A stretch of DNA of 64,000 nt from Amphiscolops sp. MND2022 (GCA_964187785.1 OZ076409.1:47430001-47494000); one strand, 5' to 3'; shown: positions 18,957-61,798, counted from the stretch's first letter. A program made the numbers and translations. The notes: generated by a model not told the origin, from the sequence alone.

Positions 18957-19126
18957 TCATTTGCTCATGCCACCTGTGCCGCTACCAAAAATATGAGAAG
19001 TATTTGGAACACCTTTCGGTGGTTGCTGATATACAGGGCCGGGTCCTGCTCCACCCATCATGGCCTTCTCTTTCTTCTCGAAACGATTTGACTCGCTGAT
19101 TCCTTTTTGGATGCTGGATATTAGCT
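18957..19126 (-). CDS. UPF2: UPF2 last coding exon
   Basis: ttttag|ag cta (phase 1, ELISSIQKG..), YQQPPKGVPNTSHIFGSG, TGA stop. Confidence 0.8.
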
Positions 19127-22100
19127 CTAAAACGCAGCATGATTCGAAATGAAACACAAAATCTGCTTCGACAAGTTCAGACCAGCTCGAAGTGGAATAA
19201 ATAAATGAATCATAGTATTCTCCCCGCATCCTTCTGTAAAAAAACCTGAAGGAGATATAAGTATTTGATGGATCTTTTCAGTCATAACTTGATAAGAGGA
19301 TTAAGCTAAACTCGAGTACTTTAAATCAATCAATGCAAACCCTAAACCAATAAAAATATTTTTACAACTTTTGCATAGACGGCACCAGCTCATTAGTGTT
19401 ATAGGAGAGCTTGTAGACCATGAAGACCCTTCACCTCTAATATTGACGTAATAATTCCGAAAATGAAAATGAGACGGGAACGTCTAAAGTCGGCGCTCCG
19501 CTTACAGCTCAAAGTCTCATTAAAATGCTTACGGTGGCTTTTGGGAAATTTTTATAAATTTCACATTGACAAAAATATACGAAAGGGCGACCTGCGGCCT
19601 CGAAAAACTTCTTTTGATAGAAACAAAAAAATACCAAATTGATGAAAAAAATCGAAAGTTGCACAGAGAAAGCGAAAAAAAACAGGCCTTTTAACACGTC
19701 AAGGGTGTGCAAACTAAGATATTTCGTGCTCGGCAGACATCGAACCGACTGTCGTCTGTTTGGGAAGCGCGCATTCTAACTACTGGTGGCGTAAACAAAA
19801 ACTATTGAAAATAGGACCATTCGTATAAATTCTGCGCATTAACGAAAAAAAAATTGTCACTGTAATAGTCGGGCACATTTTTTGTGTCGTTTATAAAACG
19901 CGCCGACGAAATAGAAATACATACGAACCCATCTGTTCTTCTTCCTGTTGTCGCTGATTGATATTTAATGTCATCTCTATCAACTTCTTCCTCTCCCTTT
20001 CTTCCGCCTGAGCATACAATCACAACTTTTACAACAGTATGAAAATCATACAAAATTGACGGTGCTCCTCAAATAAGAATATATTTCTTCTCTTTCTCGC
20101 CATCTGTTTCTCTTTCTCGTTTTTTTTTCTCTTTTTCTTTTATTTTTCTCGCCATCAGAAATGAAGTATATATACTTCATATCTGATGGCGAGAATATAT
20201 TTTGCTGTCTCAAAGAACTTACCAAATTTTGCTGCCTGATATTTTCTGCCATTTCTTCAGTGACGGGAACTTGCAAGTCTTTCAGCTGCACTTTTGTACC
20301 CTTCTTCAACATGATCGACAAACTACCTCCAGGAGGCGCATTGTCATGCTTTTTGCTGGCATTCTGATCTCCCGAGTCAGCTGCTGGAGTTTGGGACGCA
20401 AGGGGATTGAGAGATGATTTAGGCGAGTAATTCAGACTGATTTGCTCAAGAGCTGCGGTCTGGTCAGCAGTACTACTACCCAGCCCTGTAGTTTTCTTAC
20501 GAGCGTTCATTGGCAATGAAAGATCCGCAGTTGGGGCTCGCATTGCTTCGGACGTGCGTTGCTGCAAAAGGACAAGGAAATATGATATTAGTAGTAATAG
20601 CAGGGGGGCGGGTTAAATGATGTTTTGGGCTCCCAACCGAAATTATTCTAAGTCAGAAACCTATCTCACTTTTAGGGCTCCCAACCGAAATTATTCTAAG
20701 TCAGAAAGGTTAAAGTTCATTTTAACCATACCGAGCTGAATGTATGCCAATTGTCATGAATGTTTACTAATGCAAACTAATGATGAAGGTGCATTCTGAA
20801 TTCAATACATTTCAACAATGGTAACTGAGATTCAACTTTAATTGATCTTATCAACTAATTTTGCCATTTCCTGACAATTCACGAAAGTTATCATAGAAAT
20901 TAGCCAAAAGAACAAAACTGAATAGAAGTATAACATTAAGAATTCAAGGAAACACGTTATTTCTGATTGAACAACGAAAACCCTTTTATTCCTGAATTCC
21001 GAAACTTAGAAAAACAGGGTAAAATTACATGAAAAAACGTGGATCAAAGCCTCATTCCCGATGAAAATTTTTAGGAGTCGGAAAAATTTTTCGATTACTT
21101 ATGCAATCGTATCGTTTTTTTGTTTTTTTTTTCAACCGACCTTTCATGAAAATTTCGAATTCCTCAAAAACTGTCCATACTGTTTACATAAATTTTGCAC
21201 AGTCATTCTACACCCAGAGATGCTCCTGCGTGCGCAATGGCATTGAAATAGTATGACTGGTATCTGAGAAAGATAGCCAAATTTAGCCCAAAAATGACCA
21301 AAAACAGCCATTTTTCGATTTTCTCAAAAACTGTCCATATGATTCGAACGAAATTTTGTACAGTCATTCTACACCATATTATGGTCGTTTGTGTGTAATT
21401 TCATCAATTTTGTATGGCTGGGATGTGAGAAACATAGCCGAATTTAACCCAAAAATGCCCCAAAAACAGCCGTTTTTCGACTTCTTTTGATTTTCGCAAA
21501 AACTGTCCATACGATTCGAACGATACTTTGTTCAGTCATTCTACAACATATCAAGGTCCTTTGTGTGCAATTTCATCAAATTCGTATGACTGGGATTCAA
21601 GCGAGTCGGAAGGAAAAAGACCTAATCCGACTCCTTTACCGTATATGCGGCTCTGGTCACTATTGCTTTAGTTCAAAATCAAATGTGCGTCTTTGTGTAA
21701 TTCACCATTTCGAACATTCATGTCCATAAAAAGATTGGAATGAGACTATGATGACAATTATTCTAGACACGGCATTCGTATAAAATGTATTCATGCCATG
21801 AATGCGGAAAAATTCTTGTATCACAACGGGCCCTCACTAATCATCTCAGAACAAAACACCAAAATACCAATAACGTCACCAAAGTCTTTCAGTGTGGCCA
21901 CTGCTTCGTAGCATTCACCCAAACTAAAAATTTGCTGAGGCATTTACGCTCTCAGCATAATATGAATGAAAGCCATCGATGCCCAGCTTGTCCAACTATC
22001 TTTGGTTCACTGACAACTCTGAACGAACATGAGGAAACAGCACATCTGCACCAACCTTTACCAACTTCCCATTCGACGTCAGCAACCGTAGAGTTTACCA

Positions 22101-25100
22101 CTCAGGCGTTCAATTCTCGCTTTCAAATCCATCGAATGAAAATGGAAGATTCGGGTTTCATTGACCCGTTCAACTGCCTGGTGTCGTTCAAAAACGAATT
22201 ACTGGCCTTTATTAATTCAAAATTGCAAGTTGCGAGAAGCGTTAGAATTGGCTTCTCAATCGGCGTTCGCCTCATGAAACCTTTACTGGATGAATCAACT
22301 GAAGCTTACTTCAATTCGACTATGGTAAGGGTGTCACTTGAAATGACCATGGATGAATTCTTGGGTCATGTTGATCAGCTAATGTCTCAGCTGAATATGT
22401 TTGCCACTGGCGGTTCAGGCTGGGTTGTCGAGAAACTCTCCCGGTTGGAAATTAAAACAGCTCAGATTGCCACCTCACCTGCTGGCACCTACATTGAGAC
22501 TCCTCCAATCCTTCGAAATCTCAAAAGAAGCCTATTGAACATCGTCAATAAAAAAGATAGCTTCTGTTTTCTTTATTGCATTGCAGCTGCGTTATTTTCT
22601 TTTGTTGGTTCTCCCTTCAGACCGAAGTCATTTGAAAAACATTGAAAAACTGAATTTCGACCTTAAGCGAATGCCAATGCCGCTTTCAGGAATTCGCTCA
22701 TTTGAAATGAGAAATAAGTGCTCGATCAACGTTTACCAACTTGAGGACAACAAACTCATCAACATTTACAACAGCAAGAACAAGAAGTCAAGACGCCGAG
22801 TGGATCTTTTAAGACTTGTCAATGGAGAGCGCAGTCACTATTGTCTTATAAAGAATTTCTCACACATTGTTCACCATTTATCACGATCTCCCAAAAAACG
22901 AGAAGCGGGCCCGAAGAGCCGTTTTTGCCGCAATTGTTACCAGCCGACATCAACACAAAACATGCAACGGCATTTGAAGTTTTGTGAAACTAATGCCCCT
23001 TTGGAAATTTTGATGCCCGGACAAGACCGAGTTGTTGAATTTGTGAATTGGCAAAAAACACAACGATGTCCTTTTACGGTGTACGCTGATTTGGAGGCGA
23101 TCAATGTGTCACAGTCGGAATCGGGCTCCGACCAAAGATCCAAAACGCGTGAAATTGAACGACAGTACCCTGCGAGTTACGGAGCCGTTCTTATTGACAT
23201 GAGAGGTGAGTGGTTCAATTTTGTCGTTTTCAATTTTTTTTCTGGGCTTCAAATATTTCTTTTCAGCTGATGGTGTTGTGAAAAGTTCCTTCTATAGCGG
23301 CCACAATTGTATCGATAAATTACTTTCTATTCTGCGTGAATGGACACTGTGGTGTTATCATGAGAAGCAAACTTTTCGCTGGCTCCGAATTTCAAAATCG
23401 GAGCGGGAAAATCATTTACCTGGAGATTCGAAACATTGTTGTATTTGTGGTAAGAATGCTGAAAAGTCAACGCGGGTCATTCATCATTGCCATTTGACTG
23501 GTGAAATCTTTGGGGTGGCACATTCAAAATGCAATCTCAGAGCAAGATCAACAAACTTCCTCCCAATTTTTTTCACAATTTCTCTCGATATGATTCGCAC
23601 CACATATTAAAAAATCTACAGCTAAAACCTGGTGAAAAACTTTCAGCAATATCCAAGACCGATGAAACCTACACTTCTGTTAGTATTGCCGTTCCCGTTG
23701 GGAGTTATAAGGACAAACGAAATCGAATAGTGTCACTATATCATTCGCTCAGATTTCTCGACAGCTTTTAATTTATGCCTCAGAGTCTTGACGCTTTGGC
23801 AAAAACGTTGCAGTCCAAAGATTTCGTTCACCTTCGTGGCTACTTTTCCAACTTTTCCGAGGAGTTATTCAAAAAACTCATTAGAAAGGGTTATTTTCCC
23901 TACGGTTTTTTGGATAGCTTCAGTAAATTTGAAGGACCCTTGCCACCATATGGCAACGACTGGAAAAACTCCTTGACGGGATCAATTGATATCACCAATA
24001 AAGAGTTTGATGAAGCTGTTTCCATCTACAACGCATTCTCTTGTAAAACACTCGGCGACTATCATGATGTTTACTTACAAACCGACGTTTTGCTTCTGGC
24101 TGATATTTTTGAAAACTTCAGAAGGGTTTGCATCAAGGTGTACAAACTCGATCCGGCACACTTCTTTTCAGCCCCGAACCTTAGTTGGGACGCTATGCTC
24201 ATTTCAACTGAAGCCAAGTTGGGTTTGTTGGATGATATTGATAAACTATTGTTTTTCGAACGGGCTATACGTGGCGGAGTCAATGGAATTGGTGAAGTTC
24301 GACACTTTACAGCCAACAATCCCCTGTTATCGAGTTTTTCTTCCAGTGAAACCACTACTTTGTGCCTTTTTCGATGTAAAATCCCTTTACGCGGGTACAA
24401 TGCAACAATTGATGCCAAGCGGAGATTACAAATGGAACACGTCTATTACCCTACAGGAATTGCTTGATACTCCAACTGATTCACCTCTAGGTTACTTTGT
24501 TGAAGTTGACTTTCTATATCCTAAGCATTTACACGATGCTCACAATGGCCTTCCACTGGCACCTGAGAAAAAGATCATTCAACATTCTTGGCAGTCTGAC
24601 TATGCTGAAAGCTTCGGTGTTAAGCCGAGCAAAACGGCCAAATTGATAGACTCTTTTCGATAAAAAGAACTATGTATGTCACTATGAAAATCTGAAATTC
24701 TATGTCAAGCACGGTCTCGTTGTAGACAGACTGCATCGTGTTTGCGATTTCAAACAGAGCAAGTGGCTCGGTGTCTACATCGAAAAAAACACTGTTATGC
24801 GGAAACAAGCAGACAATAATTTCGAGAAGGCTTTTTTCAAACTAATGAGTAATGCTTGCTTTGGAAAGACAATGGAGAATCTACGGAAGCGCAGCAACCT
24901 AAAGTTTGTTTCAAGTGCGAGGCAGGCCGAATCTTTTGTTGAGAAAGCATCTTTCAAGTCTTTTCAGGTCATCAACGAGAAACTTGTTAGTGTTTCCTTC
25001 AAAATGACTTGTGTGCTGTGGGACAAACCAACTCCGGTGGGTGCTGCTATTCTGGATCTATCAAAACTTTCTCTCTACAAATTCCACTACGAAGTGATGA

Positions 25101-28100
25101 TTCCTCGGTATACTGCGGCCCGATTAAAACTGGCATACAAAGATACTGATTCCCTGCTATACTGTATCGAGACAAGTGACTTGTACCAAGACATGGCATG
25201 TTTCAAGCACCTACTGGACCTTTCAGATTATCCACGTGAACATTTTTTGTATGATCCTACCAACAAAAAGGTACCCTTGACAATGACAGATGAACTGCAG
25301 GGTAAAATCCTTCGGGAGGTAGTATGTCTGAGGTCCAAACTTTATAGTATAGATTTTGTTGGAGGTAAAAAGCAGAGTGCGAAAGGCGTCTCCAAAACGG
25401 TTAAAAAGACTCTGCATCACGATCTTTTCAAACAATGCCTTCTATCGAAAAAGAATTTCACCAAAAGAATGACCCAACTTCGTTCCTTCAATCATCAAAT
25501 TGTGGTAAACTCTGTCGACAAAATAGCTCTCAGCTCGTTTGACGACAAGCGGTACATCCTGGATGATGGAATCAATTCTCTCGCCTATGGTCATTATAAA
25601 ATACCTTCATCTCTTCGAGGTTAGTTTATTCGATTTCATTAAAAGATTCACCCAAGTGCAAAACTTTCAAAGTATTCTTGAAGGTTCCGTCGAACCGACA
25701 AATGACGAATCTACCGACTAGGAGAGTTTGAGGAGCTCAAGCAGCCACGAAAGTAGTAGAAGTAGTTCATCAGATGAATCGTCTGCCTCTTTACCAAGCC
25801 ACAACAGTCCCCTGAAAAGAGCATGGCAATCGGCTAGTTTCAGTGAGTAGTACTAGTATCGATTCCAAAGCTACATTTATTCAAGAGCCTGTACTTTTAG
25901 CATGCCAGTCTGATCTTGTTTTTCTTTTAGCTGGCCCAGACCCTGGTCTTTACCAACAAACTTCAATGGCCGACGATGATGAGCTTTCGGATATTGTTGA
26001 CTGGGACAATTTGTCTGTAGACCTTGAAGCTGATGAAAACCAAGACAAGTTCAACTGCCCGCTTATCAACTACGAGGCCCAAGAGTCAAGTGGTGACGAT
26101 TGTATTGAAGCCAATGAGCAGCTTCCCTCGAGAAAAATGAACAGTCAAAGTAGTCGTAAAATACAAATTGTAGACTATTCTTCCAGTAGCGATGAAAACG
26201 ACGCGACGCATGGCCTGGTCTAGTCTTATCAAAGTGAAAACAAGGTTGCTATGAAAGTTCATTTGTATTCAACGCACAGTATATCTGAATAAAGTTTTGT
26301 ATTTATCATTTATGAAACGGATTATTTCAATTTCACTACATGATTTCAATTTTTCATCCATTTGAGACAATTCGCAGGGTTTCTTTGCTATATAGTGAAT
26401 CAAAAAGAGACAATAGAGACCACACATATTGGAACTAGCATTTTGAAGTTTGAGTGCAATTTGTCGATATCCCGTTTTGCCATACAATTGATTCAGGCGA
26501 TTGAAAAACGTTGTGTAGAGAGACACTGGTCGACCCAAACAGTCCCAGACGAACACCTGCATTTTCTTTTGTCCTTGCGCAATTGTAGCGCCGAGAAGTA
26601 ACCAGTGCGATCCATGTGAGTTTTTGGGGGAAGTATTCACAATTTGAAACCAAACCAATCGTTCGCTCGCAAGAAGGTTTGTGTTCGTATCAGTAGATAC
26701 TGGTTGCAAGCTGAAATTGTCCGCTGACCAAATTCCCGCAAAGGCTACGCTCAGTGTGGAGTTGCCAAAAATCATGTGTTTTAGAGTTGCGCTATCCATC
26801 GTAGGGTCTGTTTTTCTTTATATTTCTTGCTGAATCGATAGTGACTTGACTGAACCGTTCCCCAATCAAAAATAACTCGATTGCATCGTCGAGAGCTTTT
26901 TCAAAGTACAACTTTAAAGTTAGGCTGGAACCGGTGAGTTCGGGAAAGAGTGTAAAGTTTTTGCTAGCCTCCTCTGTTGAAGTCAAGTCAAAAACAAGGA
27001 AAAAATGATTGTCCTCGTAATCCTCAAGTTTGATTCCGTTGCGTTTTTCCTTAAAGCCGAGTGCTGTTATCGTATTGTAATATAACCTCACATTGTTTGT
27101 GGTGTCTAGGGGAGTTCTTGCGAGCGGAACCCCATTTCCCCGCTGAATTTCTACCCGCTGCAAGTTGAACTTTTGATAGGAGAATGGCGTTTCATTGAGT
27201 GGAGTACTCCGGAAAAGAGAATTTTTTACCATACACAAAGTTAGACGCCGAATGGGCTCTGTCCCGAAAATATTCTCCTTTATGAAACAATTTTGTCCAG
27301 CTTGAATGATAAAACTTTTGTTCAAACTTTCAATAAAGGAATATATTGCGTCACTTTTCATTAATGCCCTCTCAATTGACAATTTGACACTGTCAGTCAC
27401 GACCACTTTTCGAACAAAGAGAGGCTTTTTCAACAACTGGAAGTATTTTACCGTCAAGGTTCTTGACATCGTCATCAGTGCCCTTCAGATGGAGAACAGT
27501 GTTGTTTGGAGATCGATATAGACGCACATGTAGAGTTACATTTGGAAGTAAAAATTTCTCACAGTCCAAAAAGTCAATGTGGAGAGCACCGCAGAGCTGA
27601 ATTTTGCATTCCTTTTTTTCTGCAAAGCTGGCAGCGAGCTTGTTAAACTGTTGATCTTTTCCAGTCGACTTGGCCAAATAGTTGTATCCTTGGCATTCGG
27701 CCCATGAGTTTTTGCTTCCCGTGTCAGTTGAAAGTTCAGTCTCCACAAATGCTGAATGCAAGTAACAATTATTGCTGTGCGAAATCAATTTTTCATTTAA
27801 GTAAAGTTCCGCATGTGAGAAGAGAGTGTGAAGTGTGTTGTTGGAGAAAACAACGTCAAAATCACCAGGTTTGGCTTTTGTCTTGCCATCTTCAAGATAA
27901 ATTGCTACTTGAACGCAAAGAACGATGCGATTCAAGTCTATTAGGTTTTCTGCTTCCGCAGCAACAAAGTCAATTGAGGTCCACGGCAACCCACGTGTGG
28001 AAAAACTTCTTGATCGTAGGCGCCTTCAAAGTTGATATAACTCCTGGTTTCTCGAAAAAGTCCAACGCACTGTGTGTCACGGGCCTCGCAATCTCTGTTG

Positions 28101-31100
28101 CACTGCCGACAAATAAATTGTTGACGGACGCCAGCTTGACAAGTTTTAATTGGAATATTGAATTTCAGACAAAATGTTGGACCGACTTCTTTTGGCGGCT
28201 GTTTTTCTCGAAATGCTGGTCGAAATGTTTCGTTTCCTGTTGACCAATCCTGCCACTGGCCGTTCGCCGCCTCCGACGCTTCCATTCGTCGCCCGTCGCG
28301 CCGCCCCCGGTTTCCGCTCGCCGCCGCCCGGGCGAAGTGCGACGCCCGCCGGCAAGTTTTTACTCATTGTTTTTGCAGCAGTCTTTTTCGCAACACTGGC
28401 TAAAAGTTTCCGATTGGGCTTCTTTTTGCCAGTCAGAACATCTCCAATTTCGGGAATTGCAGTCTCCAGCAAGTTTTTACCAACTTGTCTTGCCACAGGC
28501 AAAACGTATTTCCTTACTAGAGGAATGGCCACACGTCCCATACGGACTGCAAACGCTCCCAGCCCACCTCCAGATCCCATCTGTCTGGCAGGTCCACTGT
28601 AATTGGTGTGAGCGATGACTGATTTAATTTGCGAATCATAGTGAGCATCGATTGTGAAAGCAAGCAATATTTGAAATTGACCACCAACTGAACCTCCCAA
28701 ACGTTGGAGAACGAATGACGCGGATTAATTTCGCGGCACCGGTCGGAATGCTAAAGTAATGTTGGTGCGTCCGCAGCTCAAAAAGGGCATCTTTTGACCC
28801 ATCTCATTGGCGAGAGTTAGACTGATTGACTGAAATTGGGGTTTGACGATTCGCTTCCACTGCATGTTTGTGAAGCTCTTGTGGTTCACCTCACCCATAG
28901 TTTGCGCCAAAGCTATACTCTTGAGGGGAATGGACCTCAGGAGTGCCGTCTGCGTGTCGCCCAGCGTCTCGTTTTGTACAAGATCACAATAGATAAACAT
29001 TGTGTGACTGCCGGCATTCAAATCGACGGGCCACAGTCCGACTTGTTTCACAACCTTGGCAGTTCCTGAAGCAATTTTGTCAGGAGATTCAGCTTCGTAG
29101 CGATTTTGCGATTGACAATCGATGATTATATCGGTGCCCAAAATGTTTTTCAAATCGTCCGAGACTGCAATAATTTTAAATGCCTCGTTTTCAGCAATGC
29201 CGCTCGACTTGACATGCAACCTCCTCGTTACACTATCAATTTTCCAAGACATCAAAGAGTCATTCGTCCGAGGATTTTCGATCAATTTGCCATCTTTCTT
29301 GCCTAGAGCAGCTTTCATGATGGCTTTCATTATTGAGTCCACCGATGGGTAACAACCGGACTTGATACAAAGCGTTACAGGTTCACTGTAATTTGGTTTT
29401 TGGGTTAATGCTGAAGGGACCGCCATCGAGATCAAACCGTGTTTGTGATGCCTAGGATATTTTTCAACTGACAAGGCCGGCACTCTTTTTGAGACTGTAA
29501 ACTCTCCAACAGTAACGTTTTGGATCATTGCCGGCCAAGCAATTTCAACCAGTGCCACTTGCCAATCGCCAGGCAAGGACTGTTGTTGGTAACAGCGTCG
29601 TGAAGTTTGACGAAGAGTTTCCGGGAAAAGTAGTCATGGACGCGTTCGATATTAGGTTCATCGTAAACTCTTGACCACCTCGGCTGCTTGTTCTGTCCAT
29701 GTCTCCAATTCGTTTCAGACTAGGATGGTACTACAAACTTCACGAGTTCGGGTTCGTAAAACTTTCCCTGAATAATTTCGTTATTTCTATCCTTGACAAT
29801 GTAAGTGGGAGGGTTGCAAGTGGGAATCGAAGTTACAGTGAACAACTCTTCAGTGAATTGAATCTTATATCCTCGATGAAATGTATCAATTTTGCGTCGA
29901 ATTCGAACTTGATCGCCAACTTTGAATTTTGGTTGCTGCAGAACATTGGTGTGACAAAGCGATAAGTAGGGCACGTCTTTTTTAAGACTGTAAGATGTAC
30001 TTGAAGATCAATGATTTGAGAGATCGAATATTTCTTTCCGCCAGTGCAGACTTTGTTTCGCTTTTGGTGGAATAAATTACAATATCTTTTGATCGACAAA
30101 AACTGGCAAACTCTCCAGAGAATTCGCGGCCCTTGTCTACCCAAATCTTCTCAGGCTGATGCGTTGCATTGCAAATTTTGGGTACCGGAGGCATTCCGTT
30201 TTTGACAATGATCCTCATTAGAGCTTCTTTGCAAGCTTGTGATGTTTTAACTTTGAGGGGCTCTACCCAGAGATAACGGCTTAGGGCGTCTACTGCCACA
30301 AACAGATATCTAATTCCGCTGTTGTTAGCTGCGAATTTTTGCATATCGGCCAAATCAACTGACCAAATTTCATTCAACCTATAACTGACAACTTTCAATC
30401 GCAAGAAACGTTTCCTGGTTAGTTTGAATTTTGTGTACGTTTCGCTCGAATTGAGGTATCGATCTACATTTTTGGGAGAGCATTGGGAAGTTGTTACCAA
30501 GTTGCGTCTGCTTCCAAAAGCTGCTTTGCTCCTAGGATTTGTATAACTTTCGTGAATTTTCGTGAAGGAAGTAGCATAATCTTGGTCAGCTTCGTCGCTG
30601 AGTAGAATTCTGCTTCGATTACACTTAGAGCACAAAAAGTTGTCGTTGTATTCCTTGCTGTTCGCGAGACCGCTGCATTTGAAATGCACCCAACCGCAGA
30701 CATGACACCAAAGTGAGGGAGATGTTTTGGATCCTTTACCCAGAGGCGTTTTACAAGATCCACAAAACCACCTTTTCATTCTAAAAATTTGTCAACCACT
30801 GACTGCTGCTACCCTGTTCTGTGTCGAGTTTTAGCCTTTTGTAGGGAGACGCTCCGCTCGCTAAGCGAATTTGATGCTGATTTTGATTACTGGTCTGTCT
30901 CGCGTAGGTGTTTGCCAGCAGAAATGGTGGAATTCTGAGAACTTCAACCAGAGTGAGAAATTTCTTTGGCAATTGTTTTGTATTGACTTGCAATGCTGAG
31001 AGAAACTCTACAACACTTACTCCCGTGTCTTGTTGATCTAAATTGATGGTTTGATTAGTTTCGTCTATCGTAGTTCGTTCGCAATCTTCAATCTTTTTCA

Positions 31101-34100
31101 AAATTTGTCTCGACCTTTCAACTTTTCCACCGGTCACGCCAGATTCTAGTAAATTTGACAAAACTTGATCAGATGGGTTTTTGTATGATTGTTTTATCTC
31201 TACGGCGTTCGAAGTGCTCGAGTCTCCCGAATGGTAGCGTGAATTCAAGTTCAACTGGGCAACTAAAGAGTCTTCGGGTAATTCCTTTGTCGTATTGAAA
31301 GTTTTGATCTGGTTATCTTCAATCGGTTCAAAATTAGTTTGAGTAGCTTCGGCAAACTTTGAAAGTAAATGCTGTTTTTGCTTCTCACGTGCGTCTGTTG
31401 ATTTCTCTTGTCTTTCAAGAGAAATGTAATCTTCATGAGTGATTACGATTAGGTCACGCAGGCTACTGTTCGATGCCATGGCAACTTTTCAAATGAATTA
31501 GTACGAATTAAAATCAATTTCAACAGACGCAAACCTCTCTTTTTCGCTTCAAGGCAACTCGACGTTTCGAACAATTTTTTTCTAGATTCACTTTCTCACG
31601 TGCCAGGGAGACAGCTTTTTCTTGCAACTTTTTGTCTAGCTTGACTTTTCCCTTTACTACGTTGAAAACACAGTCACAGAAAAACTTCAATAGATTATCT
31701 GGACAATGTAAAATGGAAAATTTTTTCAATGTAGGTGAAAACTTTAGATATGAATCAACTGTATAGTAATTTTGTAAATTCATCATTGATTGAGATGAAA
31801 AGTTCGTCTCTCGTGCAATAAAAGTGGGATGGTTCGTCACCAGAGCAATGTGAGCAGTATCTGAGGTTCCTGCTGCTCCTCACATCCAAATCTATCAATA
31901 AATGACCAAATGCTTCTTGAGTTGCTCTTTTATAGACCTTCAATAGAGTAGAACGCTCGCCCAGTTGACGTCCCAAAATTCCAATTTGTTCAGAATCTCT
32001 TGGACAATCGAAAAGAACAATTTGAGTCACATTCAAATCAATTGTCTTTGAGTATTTGGACTGTTGGAAAAGATTGTGCCGTAACACCATCAGGTGAACG
32101 TTGCGATGACGGCCAGCGATGACTAGGTCCAAAAACTCTTTGCTGTTAGCAGCTTCGTCATACAGGTCGTCTATAACGACGAGAGTACGTTGCTTCAAGA
32201 TTTCTCCCCGCTCGACCGCATTCCACTCCAAGCCTTGAATGAGTTGCAGATCAACTTAGTTGGCAAGGCATTCTGCTTCAAGTTGTCTATACGGTTGCTG
32301 GTAATGCTTCTGGCCCCACAACAGAAAGAAACAATGAGGATTTGTACTGATTCTCTTGTTCATGTTTTTGGACCAGGTAAAATATGGCCTATGCAAGCTG
32401 ATAGAATCGCTAGAACCCCGGACGAAACTTTGTTGTCGTTTTCACAAAGGGTTAGGAAAAGAATACAGAAAGTAAAAACAGCAACAATTATGAAATAATG
32501 TAAAAAGACCAACACCAGAGACCTTTCAACTCGAGAATTACAACAACAAAAAGCGTAGGGTGGTCTTTCGTTGTCTGTTTGGTCGAATATGATTCTTTCA
32601 AGGTTCGGAACCGATAAATTTCCGTGATCGATTTGATCCTCTTGTTCGCTTCGATTGTTCAACGACAAGTTACTGTAGTAGCCACTAGTATGGCTCAAAT
32701 CAAGGCCGCTCATAACCTGGCGTAATTTCGAATCAAATTGATATCTCCTCCTCAGGATGCAACTGAACAGAATAATATTTAAAGTACAAATGATTGTTAA
32801 AATGGAAATGCATCAAAATGCTCTCGATGGAACAATTTGACGAATAACCAATATGATATTCCTGAGAAATGTCCTAGAAGCATATTGTTGTGGAAAGACT
32901 GAGCCTTTGTGAGAGTGTAGACGTAACCTGGGCCAACTTCCTCGAAGCTGCGCATGTACCCAGGAGCATCATGGAAAATTGCATGCAGCCTAAAGACTTT
33001 GGAAAATCTTAGATAATTATCCAGCTTACTATCGCCTGGCCCTATCTTGCCTCCGAATGGTGCCTTAGCGTTAACTTCCCTCAAATCAACATTCTCGTCT
33101 ATATAACGACAAACTGCTAAGAAAGCGTTTTTGGTGCTGCTGTTTTTAGGAAAGCAGTAGCTAACTGCCACAAAATTTTCACAAATTTGTCTCGCAGAAA
33201 ACATTACAATTTCACTGAAAGTTTGAATTATAAAACAAGGCAACTGTTTTCAAATGAAATTTTTACAGAAATGAAGTATCGATTATGGTGTCTTCATTAT
33301 AAGGGGAAAACAGTTGAGCGCTTGGTGGTGTGTTGTCGATCGCTTCGTCGAGTTGCAATGGTTGATTCAGACATTCAAAGCACATGCATTGAGCATTGGA
33401 GACTACCAGATCAATATCCAATATTCTACTGTGCTCAGAAAGAAAAAGTCGCCCGATACCTCGTTGTAAAAGTTCAATATGAGATATCACAGTATCCTTG
33501 AAAGGCGCATCACTTTTTTCTAGTTCCACAAGCTTTTGAAATATGTATAAAGCCTTTTCGTTATCGGGACAGTCACCCAACGAATTGTGTCTGTCAAGTT
33601 CCCAAACGCACTTGAAACTACATCCCAAACTTTCCGTTGTTTTCCGAGTCATCAGGCTCTTCATTCTCTCGCCTTCTACAATGAGAGATCTAGGAGAAAA
33701 AATTGACGTCTCTGTTTTCAGAAAGTTTTCTGGATACGAAACTGTGAGAAGTCGTACCTTTGCCCATTGTTCATTGGACAAAACTTGTGAAATGGTTTGT
33801 TTCAACATTGTTTCGGCGTTAGTGCATTGTGGGAGATACAAGAGAAGATGGTGATGATTTGTAAGCATGGCTTCACAAAACTCGTCCAGCGATCCATTTC
33901 TGGAGTCCTCTTTCGTATGAACTCTTCCAATGGATTGGCATTTGTGAGATTTGGAGAGTATTTCCAGTAAATTGGAAAGACTTGTGGGTGATTTTGAACC
34001 GCTGTCCTTTGAATTACAGTAGACATCACTTTCGGATTCTTCCGTTGAAAACAAGAGCAGCCAATAACTACTCGGTATTTCGCGAAACACTGAAGTCATA

Positions 34101-37100
34101 TCGCGCCTCGTGGTAAGGGTTAACTGCTCCGGAAACCATTTCAATTTATAATGACAATTTCTCTTATCAGAAGTATCATCGAAGGTAAACATGGAAAATT
34201 CCTTTGGAAAATACCAAGGGAAAGTTCCATGCAGAAAGCACAGTTTCTAGGTTTGTGATACCTAGATACTGCCGGCCCTGTTTTTTTTTCAGTTTCGAGA
34301 ATCAGATTTGTCTTCTAAATATATCAGTTTCTTTTTCGGAAATTTACGTATATTCCTATTACTGCTGCTGTCAGAGGACGAAAGGTTAGAATTTTATATT
34401 GAATTTCATTGCCCTGCATTAATGCATGAATAAAAAGCTATTTCTTTCAATTCAAGTTTCAAATGCATATAAGTCGGTCTGCTCGAAAGTTTATCATCAT
34501 TAGTTTGCATTAGTAAACATTCTTGACAATTGGCATACATTCCGCTCGGTATGGTTAAGATGAACTTTAACCTTTCTGACTTAGAATAATTTCGGTTGGG
34601 AGCCCTAAAAGTGAGATAGGTTTCTGACCTAGAATAATTTCGGTTGGGAGCCCAAAACATCATTTAACCCCCCCCTGCTATTACTACTGATATTTATGCG
34701 GTGCTTCAGCAACTATTTCAAGATCGAAGGGAGGAAATTCCATTGAAACATGAGAAACTTTAGTGAAATATTTATCTCTTTATATATCTTTTGAATGAGT
34801 AATAAATCAGGCTAACTCAGTGAAAGTTTGAATGTTTTTTTCAAAAATTCCAAACAACAAGCTAGATCTATTCCGGAACAAATAGCAAGCGGACACGAAT
34901 ACCTGAATGTTCTCAGACAGGAATTTTTCGAAGACATCGATGAAATCATCTGTTTCAGTGTCTTCCATTTGCTGCGATTGCTGATTGTAATTGTAACGAG
35001 ATGAGGGGCCTGATGATAGAGGAGAGTCCAAATAGGAAGAAGTTGAAGTTCGGTAACTGGATGAGTCATCATTCTCGTTTTCTTCCAACTCGTCTTCCTC
35101 CTGTCAAACAATAACATCTAAACTAAGGTGTTATAAATGAAAAACTTAGGTTTTTAAACAAAAAAAGCATTCAAGAAGTTCCAATCAAAAGCTTTTCGTT
35201 GAGTGTGGATTCAATGAGCGCATCAAAAAAGAGAAAGTTCATCGGAAAAGCCAGGTGTACGCCTGTATTGGACTGAATATGGAGTAAGACTGACTAATGA
35301 TGAAAGGCACACCTGTATTTCCATGCTAATTCTACGCATGCTTTCTTCACTGCAATACTCCGATTCATCTAACTCGTTGATGTCGTACAGATTATTTGCA
35401 TCCAGGTGCGGAATGTCTATTGAATTGTTTGGCGAAACATCGTCGAGATTCGTCTGCTTATGCTTCGATTCTACCTCCAAAGATAGGCTCGACACTGAAA
35501 TACCAAAACGATGACCAAAAATATGAATCAGAAAAAGTCCTGGAATAAAGAGTACCTGTATTGTTAAAAAAATGTTTTTAGTAACATCTAGATAAAGACT
35601 AGACAAATAGTATGAAATGAACGATGTCACATGGATAAGTTATGACTAACGATATGTTTCTTTAAGCTCCATTTCCAATTTGACTACGGCCTCTTGAGCA
35701 CTGCTAAGGTCTAGCTCCTGTTTCAACTGAGGCCTCAGTTGCTCGATTGTGTCACAGATCATGTTCTCGATGTCAGTGGGAAAACTAGCATTCCCACCAG
35801 TTTTGTTGGCATTGCTCATTGCTTCCACCAGAGTAGCGGCCCCTTTAGCTTTACTTTTGTTTTCACCCTGATCCCCTTTCTGTTGAGGACTAGATTTGGT
35901 ACCTGAAGCTGACTGCTGTCGAAACCATTCACGTTTCTCACACAGATATCTCTGAAACCAAGGCCACTATTCATATTTCTGGCAAAACTACAGCCAAAGA
36001 GAAAACTTGAATGATTTTCATTTCTTGTTTAACTATTTTAGAAATTCAAGGTTGATTTTAAAAATTTCTTCACTAATTTAAGGTTGCATTAGGACTTTGA
36101 TCTGGACTGATTCACTTCGTTGTTCTTCATTCAAGTTGAATGAAACGCGGGCATCCTATAGGCTACCCTATTACTTTGCAATGATTAAATTACTTGGAAG
36201 TAGACGAGAAAGCAGTCGAGCTTTTTCTTGGCAAGGCCCCCGTTGAAAAACTGGCCACAGGTGTCGAGGAGAGTGCACACTAGTCGGATGCGAAACAAGT
36301 TGTGGGGAGGGTCCAGCACCCAACTGCCGAAAGTGATGAGGGAGAAGAGAACGTGGAAGACAACCGAAGAATCGAGAAGTTTATAATTGTACAACTCTCC
36401 CAGATACTTGATCACGCTAATACGTCGCTGATTAAACTTGGCCTGTTGAACCTACACAAACACATCAAAGATACTTCCATATTCAACTGCCTTAAAGTTA
36501 GTGCTGCGGATTGTTATTATGAAGATATGTGTTCCGCGGATCGCAATTTTGTAGACATTCATAAATGTATCGTTTGAGGCAATTAATTTTTAGATTACTG
36601 TCATTCGTGGTCCCACACGTTACAACAAACATCAATGAACCCGCAAAAGCACCAAGATTACGGTAAAGGATTTCTACTGATTTAATGCGCTGGAAATGGT
36701 TGTGAGTTTCATACCTCCATGCCTTGGCGTATTTCCTCTAGAACATTGTCGATGACATGTATGACGACATGGTCGTGGTATTTTGCCAGTCCAGCCAGCA
36801 CGCTGGCCACGTACTGGATGTTGCTGAACTTCACTTCCCAGATGCGTGTGAATGTGTCTTGTGTGAATTCGACCACTTCTTCATCGTCCCAATGCAATTT
36901 TCTCAACTGATTCAACACCTGGACAAACAAATATATGAAATTGTGGTGTAAAAACTTCGTACTTTAATGACTCGTAACAGGCTTTTGAAAGCGTGTTTCA
37001 TCAGTTTAATCGCTGACAAATATAGAGGTTTGATTAGCTGCAAATAATAAAGCGTCAAAATACAAATCCACCACTTCGCTTGCCCATTTTCAAATTATTT

Positions 37101-40100
37101 GAACAGTCCTTTTTGAAGAAGCCATCAAAACCGAAAATCCGCTTTAAATCGCTTTTCAATGATTTCGGAAGTCTTAAAAGTAATTTCAGAAATGACGGTT
37201 GTCAATTAGCGACAGATTCGACATGACAATCTAAAATCACGGTGAGAATGCTATTGTCTTTCCATGACAACAATTAAGAGGAAGAAGCGAATTGAGATAC
37301 TCATTTTTTTTCATCTTGAACAAGGCTAGACTTTTGCTAAATAAAACAAGACGGGTACGTCTAGAGTCGGTGCTATATATAAAGCTCAAAAAGTGCAAAT
37401 TTTTTAAAATATGCTCAAGATGTTTTTGAAAAGCTCAGAAAACAGTTTCGAGACACCCAAAGGATGCCTTTCATGCTCGATAAGACTCGGAAACCACTTT
37501 TACCCAACTGGAAAAAATTTTTTCTTTCGGAAAATGTCGCATAGTGCCGAAAACCCTAGGCAGTCCTCTATTCTCGCAAAACGTTTCGTTTCCAGTAAAC
37601 GTCGAGGGGACTTCGATAAAAACAAGTTGGAAAAAAGTCGCATGGTGCCGAAAAAACCAAATTCGGATACAGTGTGCTGGTTCAGAGAAAACCAAATTTT
37701 AAAACAAAAAATAGTCATTTTGAAAAATCTCACAATGCCGAAAAATGTAAAAGGGGGACCCTTTTGGAGTTTTTAACATCCATTGTGTTGCAAAATTGAA
37801 GGGGGACCATTTGATGCAACCCAAAAATTTTCGAAAAAAAGTCTCTTAAAAACACAAAGATAGCCAAAAGGGGGAGATTCTTGGTATGTTTTCGAGGTTC
37901 TGGACGTCGGTTTTATTTTGGACGAGGTACTGAAGTATCCAGTAGGTTTTGGACATGCATAGTTCAAGTTGAACAAATGAACAAAAGAAGTGGACGTTTC
38001 AGTGAGAGGTCTGTGGTCTGGAGAAAAAAAGAAAAGGGTCACTGTAAGAGTCGGGCATTTTTGCTTCAAAAAAGCGCCGACTAAAAATACGGCGTTTCAA
38101 CAATCTTTTCCTTCAGAGCAGCTTTGATAGGATTGTGTTGTCTTACAAGGTCGTTCTCAATCAAAAGTCACGCAACTTTGTAACCTTGTCAACGTTGCTC
38201 TTATTGAGTTCACGGGTGACCAGATGCTGAATGTAGGCCAACATAACGGGCAGTCTCTCCTGTAGGGTGACGCTCAGAGACGAAGCAGGCGGAGGGTTCG
38301 TACAGTAGAACGCATTCTCAACCATGGCACTGAGTCTAGGGTCCAGATTGGCCACGGCCTTTTTCCTCATCATTTCATCCTAAATATTTTAGCAACACTA
38401 AACCACGTGATAATCAAGGGCAATCCAAATTGCTCTAACTCTGAAAGGGTGGAACCACAAAAAAAGCCAAAGTCTGCAATATTGGATGAAAGTACATATC
38501 AGTACATATCACTTATGAAGCAAACCGGAAACAAAATACATTTCGCCATTTCACAAGAAAATTGAAAGCACAGTAGACATTCTTTTGCCAAATCTCGAGG
38601 TATATGCTTAATAAGTCTGGCCCCAAACAAGTTTTTGAGTTTGAATTAGAAAAACGAATGAAAGTTCCACTAACAAGAAGAAATTTTGCTAGTCTGTGAG
38701 TGGCGGGGGTGCGGTAGAGATATCTGCCTGCGGTCTCCAATAGAGCACACGTCATATCTATCTGGTGATGCACGAACGATTTCAACAACTGCTTCAATAT
38801 ACGCAGAGTTTGTTCACTCTTGTATACTCCGAATTTGGTCAGCTCTCCGATGAACGTCACAGTCTTCACTTTGGATTCGATTTTAATTTGATCTTTCTTC
38901 AAAATCTGAATCAGAGAAAATTGAGATGATTATTAGGCGAACTTGAACAAAACATGCGGCGAGCATTGCATCACAACGAAAGAAGTTACCGGATTATCAA
39001 TATATACACTACTCGTATAACTCTTCAAAACAAAAACAAGTTGGCCCTGGGTGGAATTCCAACCAACATCCTCGTGTTTCCGGGGCTAACAAGCTAACGC
39101 TTGAATCACTAGGCCATCGAGCTTTACTTTCTAGTCAATTTATTAAACTTCATGAAACAGTCATAAAAGTCGTTAATGACAGCTGGAAAAAACCCACCCT
39201 TGTCTGAGTTACATGTTTTGCTTGTTTTCGGGTAGGTTAAAATGTTTGCCAAAATATCGCGAGCAATTTGGTAAACTACAGACAGTTTACCGTTTCCATG
39301 TGCTAGCAGAAATATTATTGAAGAGTACGAAAAAGGACAACAGAATGAGTTATTTGGTCAGATGAATAGAAAAAGAGGACTCTTAGGTTCATACAAATAA
39401 TACGAGCTTACCCATCCTCTGAACTCTCTGTACAGCGCGTTCGTAAGTTCAGTGGCTACTTCTGGTGCGCATGGGTAAATTGTGGCGACAAATCGTCCGT
39501 AGAAGGGTAACAGGTCCAGCCTAAACAGTCAACACAGTGCAATTTCCTACACTGAGACGTAAAAATAAAATAACATCTATCCTATTACATGTCCTCAAAA
39601 AATTATCAAAACCCATAAGAGAAGCTCTAAAAACGTACTTAATTGATGGACTGAGATTTATAGACTTGGAGGGACCATGTTTAAAAAGAATTATCTGGCT
39701 TAATAAAAGTATCAAGCACCGTTATACGAACTAACCTGTTTCTGTTGACCATGAAAAGAGTACGTGCAAGTTTGATACGGTTGCCTTGATTGTTGAATCC
39801 TTGCGATGTCGCAAACTCAATGCTAGCATCATCGATGTTCTGTCGACTGATACATTCAGGGAGCCTCGTCAAAAACTTCTCAAACTGGATCTGCGGCAAA
39901 CTGTTACCACCAGTGCCCGAACTACTGTTGCTTTCTAAAAAACACCCACGGGCTAAATCCATTCTTCTGTATAAATGATTACACTTCGAAAACCTTAAGA
40001 TTCATGACACTTAAAAATGCAGGAGCTATTCAGGTCATTTCATGAATTATGGTGATTAAATTCTAAAAACCTAATTCTTGAGTTTTTGAGACATCGAAGT

Positions 40101-61598: not shown

Positions 61599-61798
61599 NN
61601 NNNNNNNNNNNNNNNNNNNNNNNNNNNNNNNNNNNNNNNNNNNNNNNNNNNNNNNNNNNNNNNNNNNNNNNNNNNNNNNNNNNNNNNNNNNNNNNNNNNN
61701 NNNNNNNNNNNNNNNNNNNNNNNNNNNNNNNNNNNNNNNNNNNNNNNNNNNNNNNNNNNNNNNNNNNNNNNNNNNNNNNNNNNNNNNNNNNNNNNNNN
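61599..61798. other. Assembly gap (200 N)
   Basis: Run of N. Confidence 0.99.

What the first reader, a model, noticed from the sequence alone, without database searches (positions are those of the whole stretch)
20562..34902. A complete 14.1-kb Polinton/adintovirus inside an intron of the NMD gene UPF2
UPF2 exons join across the element in phase 0 (..SENIQ|QRTSEAMR..). Removing the element and one TSD shrinks the intron from 14,341 to 236 nt. A virus-like element therefore resides in a core RNA-surveillance gene; NMD is an established restriction pathway for some viral and aberrant RNAs. The capsid/integrase/ATPase module is in UPF2 sense orientation and pPolB is antisense.
Basis: partly seen in the sequence, partly recalled or inferred. 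Interest (0 to 1): 0.8.

Follow-up and report, generated by a model that had tools for sequence, protein, structure and literature searches.

The report
Decayed Polinton with spliced polymerase gene
A broken-down copy of a virus-like jumping element sits in an intron of the RNA quality-control gene UPF2, likely by chance; the less ordinary feature is that its DNA polymerase gene, like those of four sister families, is cut at one fixed spot by a short host-style intron that is predicted to need the host's splicing machinery.

Summary
Anatomy confirmed: a 14,099-bp Polinton (197-bp TIRs, 6-bp TSD) lies in a 14,341-nt GT-AG intron of an intact single-copy UPF2 (20 exons, 1,362 aa), with the stated orientations. 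It is not functionally complete. Polymerase, both capsids, integrase, ATPase and a PW-like gene are broken, and its private changes are near-neutral (dN/dS 0.82 against 0.14 between subfamilies). The UPF2 address looks like chance: the family has at least 40 copies, at least 3 of 10 other Polinton copies sit in introns of conserved genes (ValRS, BIRC6, CRTC), and UPF2 has another 12-kb repeat-filled intron. It lies at the same codon in five families of this genome (62-88 nt, unrelated interiors), and two lineages lack it. The tree favours one gain plus one precise loss. Papers I read call core Polinton genes intronless, but this scan has already noted spliced Polinton polymerases in at least 4 other genomes. 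A conserved HUH-fold accessory gene is a side lead. No sequencing runs were listed, so splicing and empty-site alleles are untested.

The parts
18957..58199 (-). Host UPF2 gene: 20 coding exons, 1,362 aa, no internal stop, 19 of 19 introns GT-AG; intron 1 (45825-58018) is 12.2 kb of repeats
   Evidence: single copy
34903..35100 (-). UPF2 exon 17 (acidic linker and start of the UPF1-binding region), upstream of the element
20562..34902 (-). UPF2 intron 17, 14,341 nt, phase 0; element lies 214 nt from the donor and 28 nt from the acceptor
20223..20561 (-). UPF2 exon 18 (Pfam Upf2 PF04050, positions 36-117), downstream of the element
   Evidence: E 5e-9
20584..20589 (+). Left 6-bp target-site duplication GATATT
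34689..34694 (+). Right 6-bp target-site duplication GATATT
20590..34688 (.). Polinton/Maverick copy, 14,099 bp, decayed
20590..20786 (+). Left TIR (197 bp, AGTAGT end, internal 37-bp repeats)
34494..34688 (-). Right TIR (195 bp)
20587..20591 (-). Branch-point-like CTAAT formed by the element's end plus the TSD, A at -27 of the UPF2 acceptor (function inferred only)
21159..21596 (+). ~165-bp imperfect tandem repeats upstream of pPolB
21785..25624 (+). pPolB gene: C2H2 fingers, terminal-protein (LF/PAD-like) domain, OTU domain, exonuclease with EndoVII/HNH insert, polymerase; broken here near 22620, 23570, 23770, 24360 and 24650
23206..23266 (+). 61-nt phase-1 GT-AG intron inside pPolB (GTGAGT...TTTTCAG), shared by all 30 sister loci parsed and at the same codon in four other families
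25966..26223 (+). Acidic 85-aa ORF, homologues in 7 of 10 family representatives
26269..26799 (-). Adenain-type (C5) maturation protease, frame open
   Evidence: E 2e-4, just over Pfam cut-off
26792..28145 (-). Major capsid protein, broken in three places
   Evidence: unbroken family homologue resembles PF21738 DJR clusters (score 0.98)
28146..28655 (-). Basic core-protein-like ORF (PZ-like label recalled); lacks the start used by sister copies
28725..29700 (-). Probable minor capsid protein (by position and size), broken near 29580
   Evidence: identity not tested directly
29720..30779 (-). rve integrase with an N-terminal PHD-like Cys/His finger; ~0.1-kb deletion near 29990
30781..31479 (-). 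Conserved 232-aa ORF, no family match
31466..31786 (-). PW/GasderminX-like ORF (label recalled, untested), broken
31755..32362 (-). A32/FtsK packaging ATPase; ~0.1-kb deletion and a second break near 32310-32330
   Evidence: (Pox_A32 E 5e-5)
32360..32713 (-). 117-aa ORF with a hydrophobic C-terminal half
32797..33204 (-). PLA2-like ORF by motif (invariant GPG...HD); no database confirmation
33263..34192 (-). 309-aa ORF with invariant H-x-H and a predicted HUH/Rep-like fold, present in all 10 family representatives

Best explanation
The element is a decayed copy of a multi-copy Polinton family that likely landed in UPF2 intron 17 by untargeted integration and is predicted to be spliced out harmlessly, while its polymerase gene carries an old, family-wide GT-AG intron that likely makes polymerase expression depend on the host spliceosome. 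Shown: termini, TSD, broken genes, near-neutral private changes, intact UPF2 frame, and the intron's position, phase and splice dinucleotides in five families. Inferred steps: (1) the integrase of an active relative inserted the copy 28 nt upstream of the host acceptor; (2) it was tolerated because the polypyrimidine tract and AG stayed intact, and the element's end plus the TSD form a branch-point-like CTAAT at -27; (3) it then decayed, about 1% per TIR; (4) in active members, host Pol II transcribes pPolB in the nucleus and the 62-88-nt intron is removed to join the terminal-protein/OTU/ExoI half to the rest of the exonuclease and the polymerase; (5) the intron was gained once in this clade and lost precisely in one sub-lineage.
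For: Decay: frame-changing indels or deletions in 6 genes, mostly private and mostly outside homopolymers (2 of 17 coding indel events at runs of 5), against 0 breaks in 4,089 nt of UPF2 CDS. Private N:S 47:16, omega 0.82, against 86:175, omega 0.14, for subfamily-fixed differences; Fisher p 3e-9. Chance location: at least 40 protease-bearing copies (40 scored of 85 candidates). At least 3 of 10 other copies have exons of one gene on both flanks: ValRS, BIRC6, CRTC (downstream motif recalled). Intron: unsplit relatives run through the site with no residue missing (P0007 478/479, P0012 472/473). 28 of 30 sister loci have GT..AG and 30 of 30 have AG. Five families have 62-, 68-, 69-, 82- and 88-nt inserts at the same codon and phase, all GT..AG. 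Between families the interiors are at most 0.01 above the highest shuffled value (0.42-0.59), while flanking exons are 0.51-0.70 identical. Four lengths break the frame and the fifth holds a stop. The first Met after the acceptor varies from 18 to 169 codons. Both sides are under purifying selection (omega 0.20 and 0.06). In representatives of these families the other core genes show no shared split. 19 of 27 database proteins matching the first half stop at the site. Intron-bearing rows do not form one clade (AU p 0.002).
Against: No RNA or raw-read evidence for either splice event or for the element-host junctions (none listed). For a gene named in advance the chance of a hit is small (0.001-0.007 for 25 kb), so 'chance' rests on the post-hoc argument and a 10-copy sample. 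In the window's own subfamily three sisters have a 60-nt, in-frame intron, one with a lost GT, so read-through is possible there. The intron is no more diverged between subfamilies than synonymous sites (2 of 51 against pS 0.09-0.15), so there is no neutral-rate signature at that depth. The intron state of P0003, P0005, P0008 and P0009 is inferred from protein ends only, and the loss scenario depends on P0008/P0009. Many ENA proteins may come from another assembly of the same species and are not independent. Only 8 of 19 host introns show a CTRAY/TTRAY motif, so the branch-point argument is weak.
Confidence: 0.8

Rival explanations
1. The insertion dampens NMD: premature polyadenylation or mis-splicing inside the element yields UPF2 cut within its UPF1-binding region, which benefits Polintons.
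For: The junction falls just inside the UPF1-binding region, which starts at residue 1105 in human UPF2 (PMC3936715 passages; alignment). The element is 28 nt from the acceptor and has 5 sense-strand AATAAA. Polinton insertions did alter the C. elegans eri-6/7 siRNA locus (10.1101/2024.01.15.575659, abstract).
Against: The copy is dead. UPF2 is single-copy with an intact frame. Cryptic donor, acceptor and AATAAA densities (0.64, 0.21, 0.35 per kb) are like those of UPF2's 12.2-kb intron 1 (0.74, 0.16, 0.82). Other copies sit in unrelated genes.
Confidence: 0.07
2. The pPolB intron is a regulated switch: retention gives a ~480-500-aa zinc-finger/terminal-protein/OTU product without polymerase, splicing gives full pPolB, so the element can make priming protein apart from polymerase.
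For: A model of the natural first-half ORF matches the LF/PAD fold (4IR1, Z 8.2, rmsd 2.7, 98 aligned) and OTU domains (Z 8.1, rmsd 3.1, 99 aligned), the two domains described for Polinton pPolB N-termini (10.1101/2024.03.18.585575, passages). Unspliced frames stop within 1-28 codons in all five families.
Against: The intron lies ~115 residues past the OTU domain, inside the exonuclease, not at a domain border. Related lineages with the same gene set lack it. Splice sites score as ordinary host sites (9.0 and 8.2 bits). No RNA data.
Confidence: 0.1
3. The break in pPolB is not an intron but a split gene, frameshift site or shared decay; or the element's breaks are assembly errors and the copy is intact.
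For: No transcript evidence; homopolymer-rich intron; reads not seen.
Against: Frame offsets differ between families (+1, +2, 0 with a stop), which excludes one frameshift mechanism. There is no conserved second start. GT and AG are kept at fixed positions while the interior turns over. Host exons beside the element have no errors, and ~0.1-kb deletions and excess amino-acid changes are not typical base-calling errors.
Confidence: 0.03

Closest known systems
Polintons/Mavericks of animals (adintoviruses; PMC8502044, PMC8097293)
   Same: TIRs, 6-bp TSD, ~14 kb, pPolB with terminal-protein and OTU domains, rve integrase, A32/FtsK ATPase, adenain protease, DJR capsid; most copies decayed (96% in vertebrates, PMC8097293 passage).
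   Different: [quoted passage not shown] The element also carries an HUH-fold ORF and a PHD-like finger on the integrase.
HNH-containing pPolB2 Polintons of nematodes and oomycetes (10.1101/2023.08.22.554363)
   Same: HNH/EndoVII-type insert in pPolB (PF02945, E 6e-6).
   Different: Relationship not tested on a tree; no spliceosomal intron reported there (2 'intron' passages, both about group I introns).
C. elegans eri-6/7 Polinton insertions (10.1101/2024.01.15.575659)
   Same: Polinton inside a host RNA-surveillance gene.
   Different: There the insertions rearranged the locus and changed expression; here the host gene is collinear and intact and no effect is shown.
Introner-invaded Polinton-like proviruses of dinoflagellates (PMC11957031)
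   Same: Spliceosomal-type introns in Maverick/Polinton-like elements.
   Different: There, mostly young introner insertions after integration; here one old intron is inherited by whole families, and its sequence was found only at Polinton pPolB loci (38 matches, same places).
Adenovirus E2B (terminal protein and polymerase made by alternative splicing; recalled)
   Same: Splicing needed to express a protein-primed polymerase.
   Different: Here TP and polymerase are one fused frame and the intron lies within the exonuclease domain.

Membership tests
Polinton/Maverick (adintovirus) | Terminal inverted repeats with repeated end motif | tested here: met
   197/195-bp TIRs, AGTAGT ends
Polinton/Maverick (adintovirus) | 6-bp target-site duplication | tested here: met
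   GATATT on both sides; 6 of 7 fetched copies with both ends also have one
Polinton/Maverick (adintovirus) | Protein-primed PolB with N-terminal TP and OTU domains | tested here: met
   PF03175 weak, below cut-off; 2160 homologues; LF/PAD and OTU folds in a 93%-identical natural first-half ORF
Polinton/Maverick (adintovirus) | rve integrase | tested here: met
   PF00665 E 5e-9
Polinton/Maverick (adintovirus) | A32/FtsK ATPase and adenain protease | tested here: met
   PF04665 E 5e-5; PF00770 E 2e-4
Polinton/Maverick (adintovirus) | [quoted passage not shown] | tested here: met
   Atlas score 0.98, 225 of 256 features shared with a PF21738 cluster, for a family homologue 81-93% identical to the window pieces; Pfam and PDB sequence searches gave nothing
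Polinton/Maverick (adintovirus) | [quoted passage not shown] | tested here: inconclusive
   Assigned by position and size; no Pfam hit
Intact (potentially active) Maverick as defined in PMC8097293 | All core ORFs unbroken | tested here: not met
   Six genes broken in the window copy
Intact (potentially active) Maverick as defined in PMC8097293 | Core ORFs intronless | tested here: not met
   GT-AG intron in pPolB in five families
Alpha versus Beta adintovirus | PolB class and hallmark accessory gene (PLA2X versus GasderminX/Cupiennin) | tested here: inconclusive
   Top viral fold hits are Drosophila adintovirus 2 and bidna-like polymerases, and a PLA2-like motif is present (no PDB support); the GasderminX-like label is recalled only
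U2-type spliceosomal intron (pPolB 23206-23266) | GT-AG ends, host-like donor and polypyrimidine acceptor, homologues contiguous across the site | tested here: met
U2-type spliceosomal intron (pPolB 23206-23266) | Removal from RNA | not testable with these tools
   No run listed; no spliced family member among proteins listed
UPF2 orthologue | Three MIF4G domains plus Upf2 C-terminal domain, intact frame, single copy | tested here: met
HUH endonuclease (orf309) | HUH motif on a Rep-like fold | tested here: inconclusive
   H-x-H invariant in 9 of 9; best PDB match AAV5 Rep Z 7.7, rmsd 3.8, 129 aligned, tied with de novo ferredoxin folds at Z 7.0; top viral hits parvoviral NS proteins, E 9e-5
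HUH endonuclease (orf309) | Conserved catalytic tyrosine | tested here: inconclusive
   Helix after the HUH sheet reads F-x-K rather than Y-x-x-K in most members; a nearby Tyr is kept in 8 of 9 close members but not in distant ones

The most novel reading that the evidence does not exclude
A clade of animal Polintons captured a spliceosomal intron in pPolB and uses it as a switch: retention gives a stand-alone terminal-protein/OTU product (a likely NMD substrate), splicing gives the polymerase, converging on adenovirus-style separation of priming protein and polymerase. A sister lineage lost the intron exactly, a footprint of RNA-templated change in a DNA virus. The same elements carry an overlooked parvovirus-Rep-like HUH-fold protein.
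Probability: 0.12. Interest if true: 0.75.

Novelty: new variant of a known kind. Interest (0 to 1): 0.42.

Why it matters
The headline claim (a virus living in an NMD gene) is real anatomy but probably coincidence. The polymerase intron matters more. Surveys that define active Polintons by intronless ORFs would score five families of this genome as broken. An inherited intron implies that the replicase is expressed through nuclear Pol II and the host spliceosome, which bears on whether these elements replicate on their own in the nucleus or depend on helper viruses. Presence and absence at one codon among close families gives a tractable system for intron gain and loss in a DNA virus-like element. 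The scan has noted spliced Polinton polymerases elsewhere, so this is one more, fairly well-controlled case and not a first.

Tried and rejected
Sequencing runs: none was listed for window:34700-41500, so no reads were laid; this is no evidence either way. Empty-site haplotig: the right flank has 1 match in G000, so the assembly holds no second allele; polymorphism stays open. Spliced pPolB product: no member longer than 795 aa among the 15 listed of 24 (P0002 cluster) or the 15 listed of 38 (P0006 cluster); no family member spanning the site among 27 hits; most are genomic gene calls, so this is weak. Intron as a mobile introner: 38 matches, all at pPolB loci seen; rejected for this intron sequence. 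Metagenome scan: 2 loci, 39-40% identical; L161 runs through the site unsplit, L162 starts after it. NACHT/STAND reading of orf309 (Atlas 0.82): rejected in favour of the HUH-like fold. PDB sequence searches for UPF2 exon 18, MCP, PLA2-like and orf309 found nothing relevant; Foldseek against PDB gave no hit at E<=0.001 for the first-half pPolB model. Flank test: 140 of 1,507 candidate ORFs were scanned (top 7 per flank); 7 of 10 copies stayed unresolved or intergenic (one lies 245 nt past an ELP4-like gene end); two searches found nothing. One search compared two non-homologous ORFs and is uninformative. The first UPF2 models had wrong exon borders and were corrected; the splice-site matrix used one acceptor misplaced by one base. 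The 33-row tree finished only as a quick tree; the 20-row careful tree dropped 13 rows (within-family duplicates, rows of unknown intron state, most distant outgroups). Earlier-findings look-ups by place, relatives, UPF/NMD and HUH returned nothing. Literature searches for spliced Polinton polymerases; none of the passages read reports one in animals. Repbase, subscription papers and all supplements were not seen and may record such cases. The HUH-fold ORF was checked in print only by a word search in PMC8502044 (0 hits).
Full report
1. Observation. The element runs from 20590 to 34688 (14,099 bp). It begins AGTAGT and ends ACTACT, has TIRs of 197 and 195 bp with 4 mismatches and one 2-nt gap, and is flanked by GATATT on both sides. 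The host intron 34902-20562 on the minus strand is GT..AG and 14,341 nt long, or 236 nt without the element and one TSD. The flanking exons join in phase 0. The downstream exon matches Pfam Upf2 (E 5e-9) and four upstream exons match MIF4G. A mollusc UPF2 aligns to 34968-34903 with residues 1151-1172 and to 20567-20196 with 1171-1265. The full model has 20 exons, 1,362 aa, no internal stop and 19 of 19 GT-AG introns; its 3' part is 36% identical to mollusc and frog UPF2 over about 870 residues. G000 holds one match to the flank and one to PF04050. No N lies in the region.

2. The copy is a fossil. Natural full-length pPolB relatives align to the window in six pieces over changing frames. Against 7-8 sister copies, the window copy has four frame-changing indels and a stop in pPolB, three breaks in the major capsid gene, one in the probable minor capsid gene, two in the PW-like gene, and ~0.1-kb deletions in integrase and ATPase. 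Ten of these 15 gap events are private; the shared ones partly coincide with large deletions in other copies. Only 2 of 17 coding indel events lie at runs of five, and the host exons beside them are error-free, so assembly noise is unlikely. Private substitutions are 47 non-synonymous to 16 synonymous (omega 0.82); differences fixed between two subfamilies are 86 to 175 (omega 0.14; Fisher p 3e-9). The nearest sisters differ by 2.0-2.8% and the TIRs by 2.1%. The lineage replicated under selection, and this copy has drifted since insertion. 'Complete' is true of its outline only.

3. Is the UPF2 address special? The family has at least 40 protease-bearing copies (40 scored of 85 candidates), and the genome holds at least seven families with the same gene order. 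I took 10 kb on each side of 10 other copies and scanned 140 of 1,507 candidate ORFs. Three of 10 have exons of one gene on both sides: valyl-tRNA synthetase, BIRC6 and CRTC (the downstream motif is recalled). The other seven are unresolved or intergenic, so this is a floor. UPF2 itself has a second, 12.2-kb repeat-filled intron. Strong cryptic donors, acceptors and AATAAA on the sense strand of the element (9, 3 and 5 in 14.1 kb) are not denser than in that intron (9, 2 and 10 in 12.2 kb). Against this, a gene named beforehand would be hit with probability of only 0.001-0.007. The junction lies just inside the UPF1-binding region (human residue 1105 onward; PMC3936715, passages), and the element sits 28 nt from the acceptor. 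Its end plus the TSD spell CTAAT with the A at -27, which may have supplied a branch point; only 8 of 19 host introns show such a motif, so this is a suggestion. A Polinton in an RNA-defence gene has a precedent in C. elegans eri-6/7 (10.1101/2024.01.15.575659; abstract and outline). No run was listed, so expression and polymorphism are untested.

4. One of the pPolB 'breaks' is common to all copies. It is a 61-nt GTGAGT...TTTTCAG stretch at 23206-23266, phase 1, across which unsplit relatives lose no residue (P0007 478/479; P0012 472/473). Of 30 sister loci, 28 have GT..AG, one GG and one AA at the donor, and all 30 have AG; lengths are 59-68 nt, 19 of them 62. Four further families carry inserts of 66-68, 69-70, 82 and 88 nt at the same codon and phase, each GT..AG, while two lineages have an uninterrupted ~1,275-aa frame. 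Between families the interiors are 0.42-0.59 identical, at most 0.01 above the highest of 50 shuffles, and the flanking 150 nt are 0.51-0.70 identical. Unspliced frames stop within 1-28 codons. The frame offsets differ, which rules out one frameshift mechanism, and the first Met downstream lies 18-169 codons in, which argues against a separately started second protein. Both halves are under purifying selection (omega 0.20 and 0.06). The splice sites score like host sites. In ten family representatives no other gene showed a shared split. In the protein database, 19 of 27 hits to the first half end at the site, 4 span it and 4 end earlier; 79 of 120 hits to the C-terminal part, most of them distant relatives, span it. 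Logan and JGI members only 69-86% identical to the nearest G000 family suggest other hosts, but ENA members may be the same species. The intron sequence occurs only at pPolB loci.

5. History and mechanism. On a 20-row tree of the catalytic region, the five intron families form a clade with P0003 and P0005 (100/98). Holding all split rows together is rejected (AU p 0.002). One gain and one exact loss is the simplest reading; two gains at one codon is the alternative. A model of a natural first-half ORF (P0303, pLDDT 64.5) shows zinc fingers, an LF/PAD-like domain (4IR1, Z 8.2) and an OTU domain (Z 8.1). These are the terminal-protein and protease domains described for Polinton pPolB (10.1101/2024.03.18.585575, passages). 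The intron lies after the first exonuclease motif (motif label recalled). I read it as a constitutive intron that ties polymerase expression to the host spliceosome (inferred). A regulated retention switch is possible but unsupported.

6. Side lead. The last ORF (33263-34192) is in all ten family representatives, under purifying selection (omega 0.13), with 141 relatives at E<=0.001. It has an invariant H-x-H. A model of a family member (pLDDT 79) matches parvoviral NS proteins (E 9e-5) and AAV5 Rep (Z 7.7, rmsd 3.8, 129 aligned). Z is under 8 and generic ferredoxin folds tie, so this is a lead.

7. Comparison with what is known. The element meets the Polinton/Maverick features tested (TIR, TSD, pPolB, integrase, ATPase, protease, DJR capsid), fails the 'intact' definition, and is not cleanly Alpha or Beta (PMC8502044, passages and section 7). 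PMC8097293 (passages) found no introns in intact vertebrate elements and cites Kapitonov and Jurka 2006 (not seen) in agreement. 10.1101/2022.07.12.499685 (passages) calls the core genes intronless, with introns only in cargo. PMC11957031 (passages) reports introners in dinoflagellate proviruses, mostly acquired after integration. Passages of PMC12220804, PMC8363768, PMC11296320, PMC9683012 and 10.1101/2023.08.22.554363 gave no spliceosomal intron in an animal pPolB. The searches were made; Repbase, subscription papers and supplements were not seen. The scan's own notes list 10 findings of spliced pPolB in at least 4 other genomes; these are unchecked and lower the claim to be first.

8. Verdict. 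Observation partly confirmed; interpretation partly supported. Best reading (0.8): a dead, chance intronic Polinton whose family carries an old spliceosomal intron in its polymerase gene. New variant of a known kind; interest 0.42.

Noticed in passing
window 33263-34192 (-); homologues in L164-L182: Conserved accessory ORF (omega 0.13 between subfamilies, 141 relatives) with invariant H-x-H and a predicted HUH/Rep-like fold; the usual catalytic Tyr is not evident, so it may be an origin-binding protein.
   Followed up: partly
window 30600-30779 (-): PHD-like Cys/His finger at the integrase N-terminus, also in other families (Pfam PHD only E 0.3-0.7); a possible chromatin-targeting module.
   Followed up: partly
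L189:8071-8226 and L190:2955-5973: Another Polinton copy lies between exons of a valyl-tRNA synthetase gene.
   Followed up: yes
L193:8382-8684 and L194:4260-6806: Another copy lies between exons of BIRC6 (PDB E 8e-22).
   Followed up: yes
L197:9064-9519 and L198:2977-3207: A copy of a different family lies between exons of a CRTC/TORC gene (downstream motif recalled).
   Followed up: partly
window near 23770: The in-frame stop in pPolB is shared with one sister copy of 8 compared; a defective lineage may have been copied in trans.
   Followed up: no
window 45825-58018: UPF2 intron 1 is 12.2 kb, rich in dispersed repeats, with a reverse-transcriptase fragment at 50710-50889 (PF00078 E 6e-5).
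   Followed up: partly
window 20146-20195: Perfect-looking 50-nt palindrome (25-nt arms, 96% complementary) in UPF2 intron 18, 28 nt after the donor.
   Followed up: no
G000: Polintons are abundant and diverse here: about 4,600 loose pPolB candidates and at least seven families with one shared gene order.
   Followed up: partly
BFVD entry A0A7D4VFN9: Drosophila-associated adintovirus 2 has a separate 560-aa C2H2 protein matching the first half of pPolB; it may be another split polymerase. PMC8363768 has no 'intron' passage.
   Followed up: partly
L133 and L074: Two copies hold internal tandem duplications that include the pPolB intron.
   Followed up: no
proteins P0289-P0291: Nearest named Polinton relatives are from the acoel Convolutriloba macropyga (57-59% to G000 families, unsplit at the site), hinting that the host is an acoel worm; host not identified directly.
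   Followed up: partly
window 61599-61798: 200-N scaffold gap; none lies inside the element or UPF2.
   Followed up: yes
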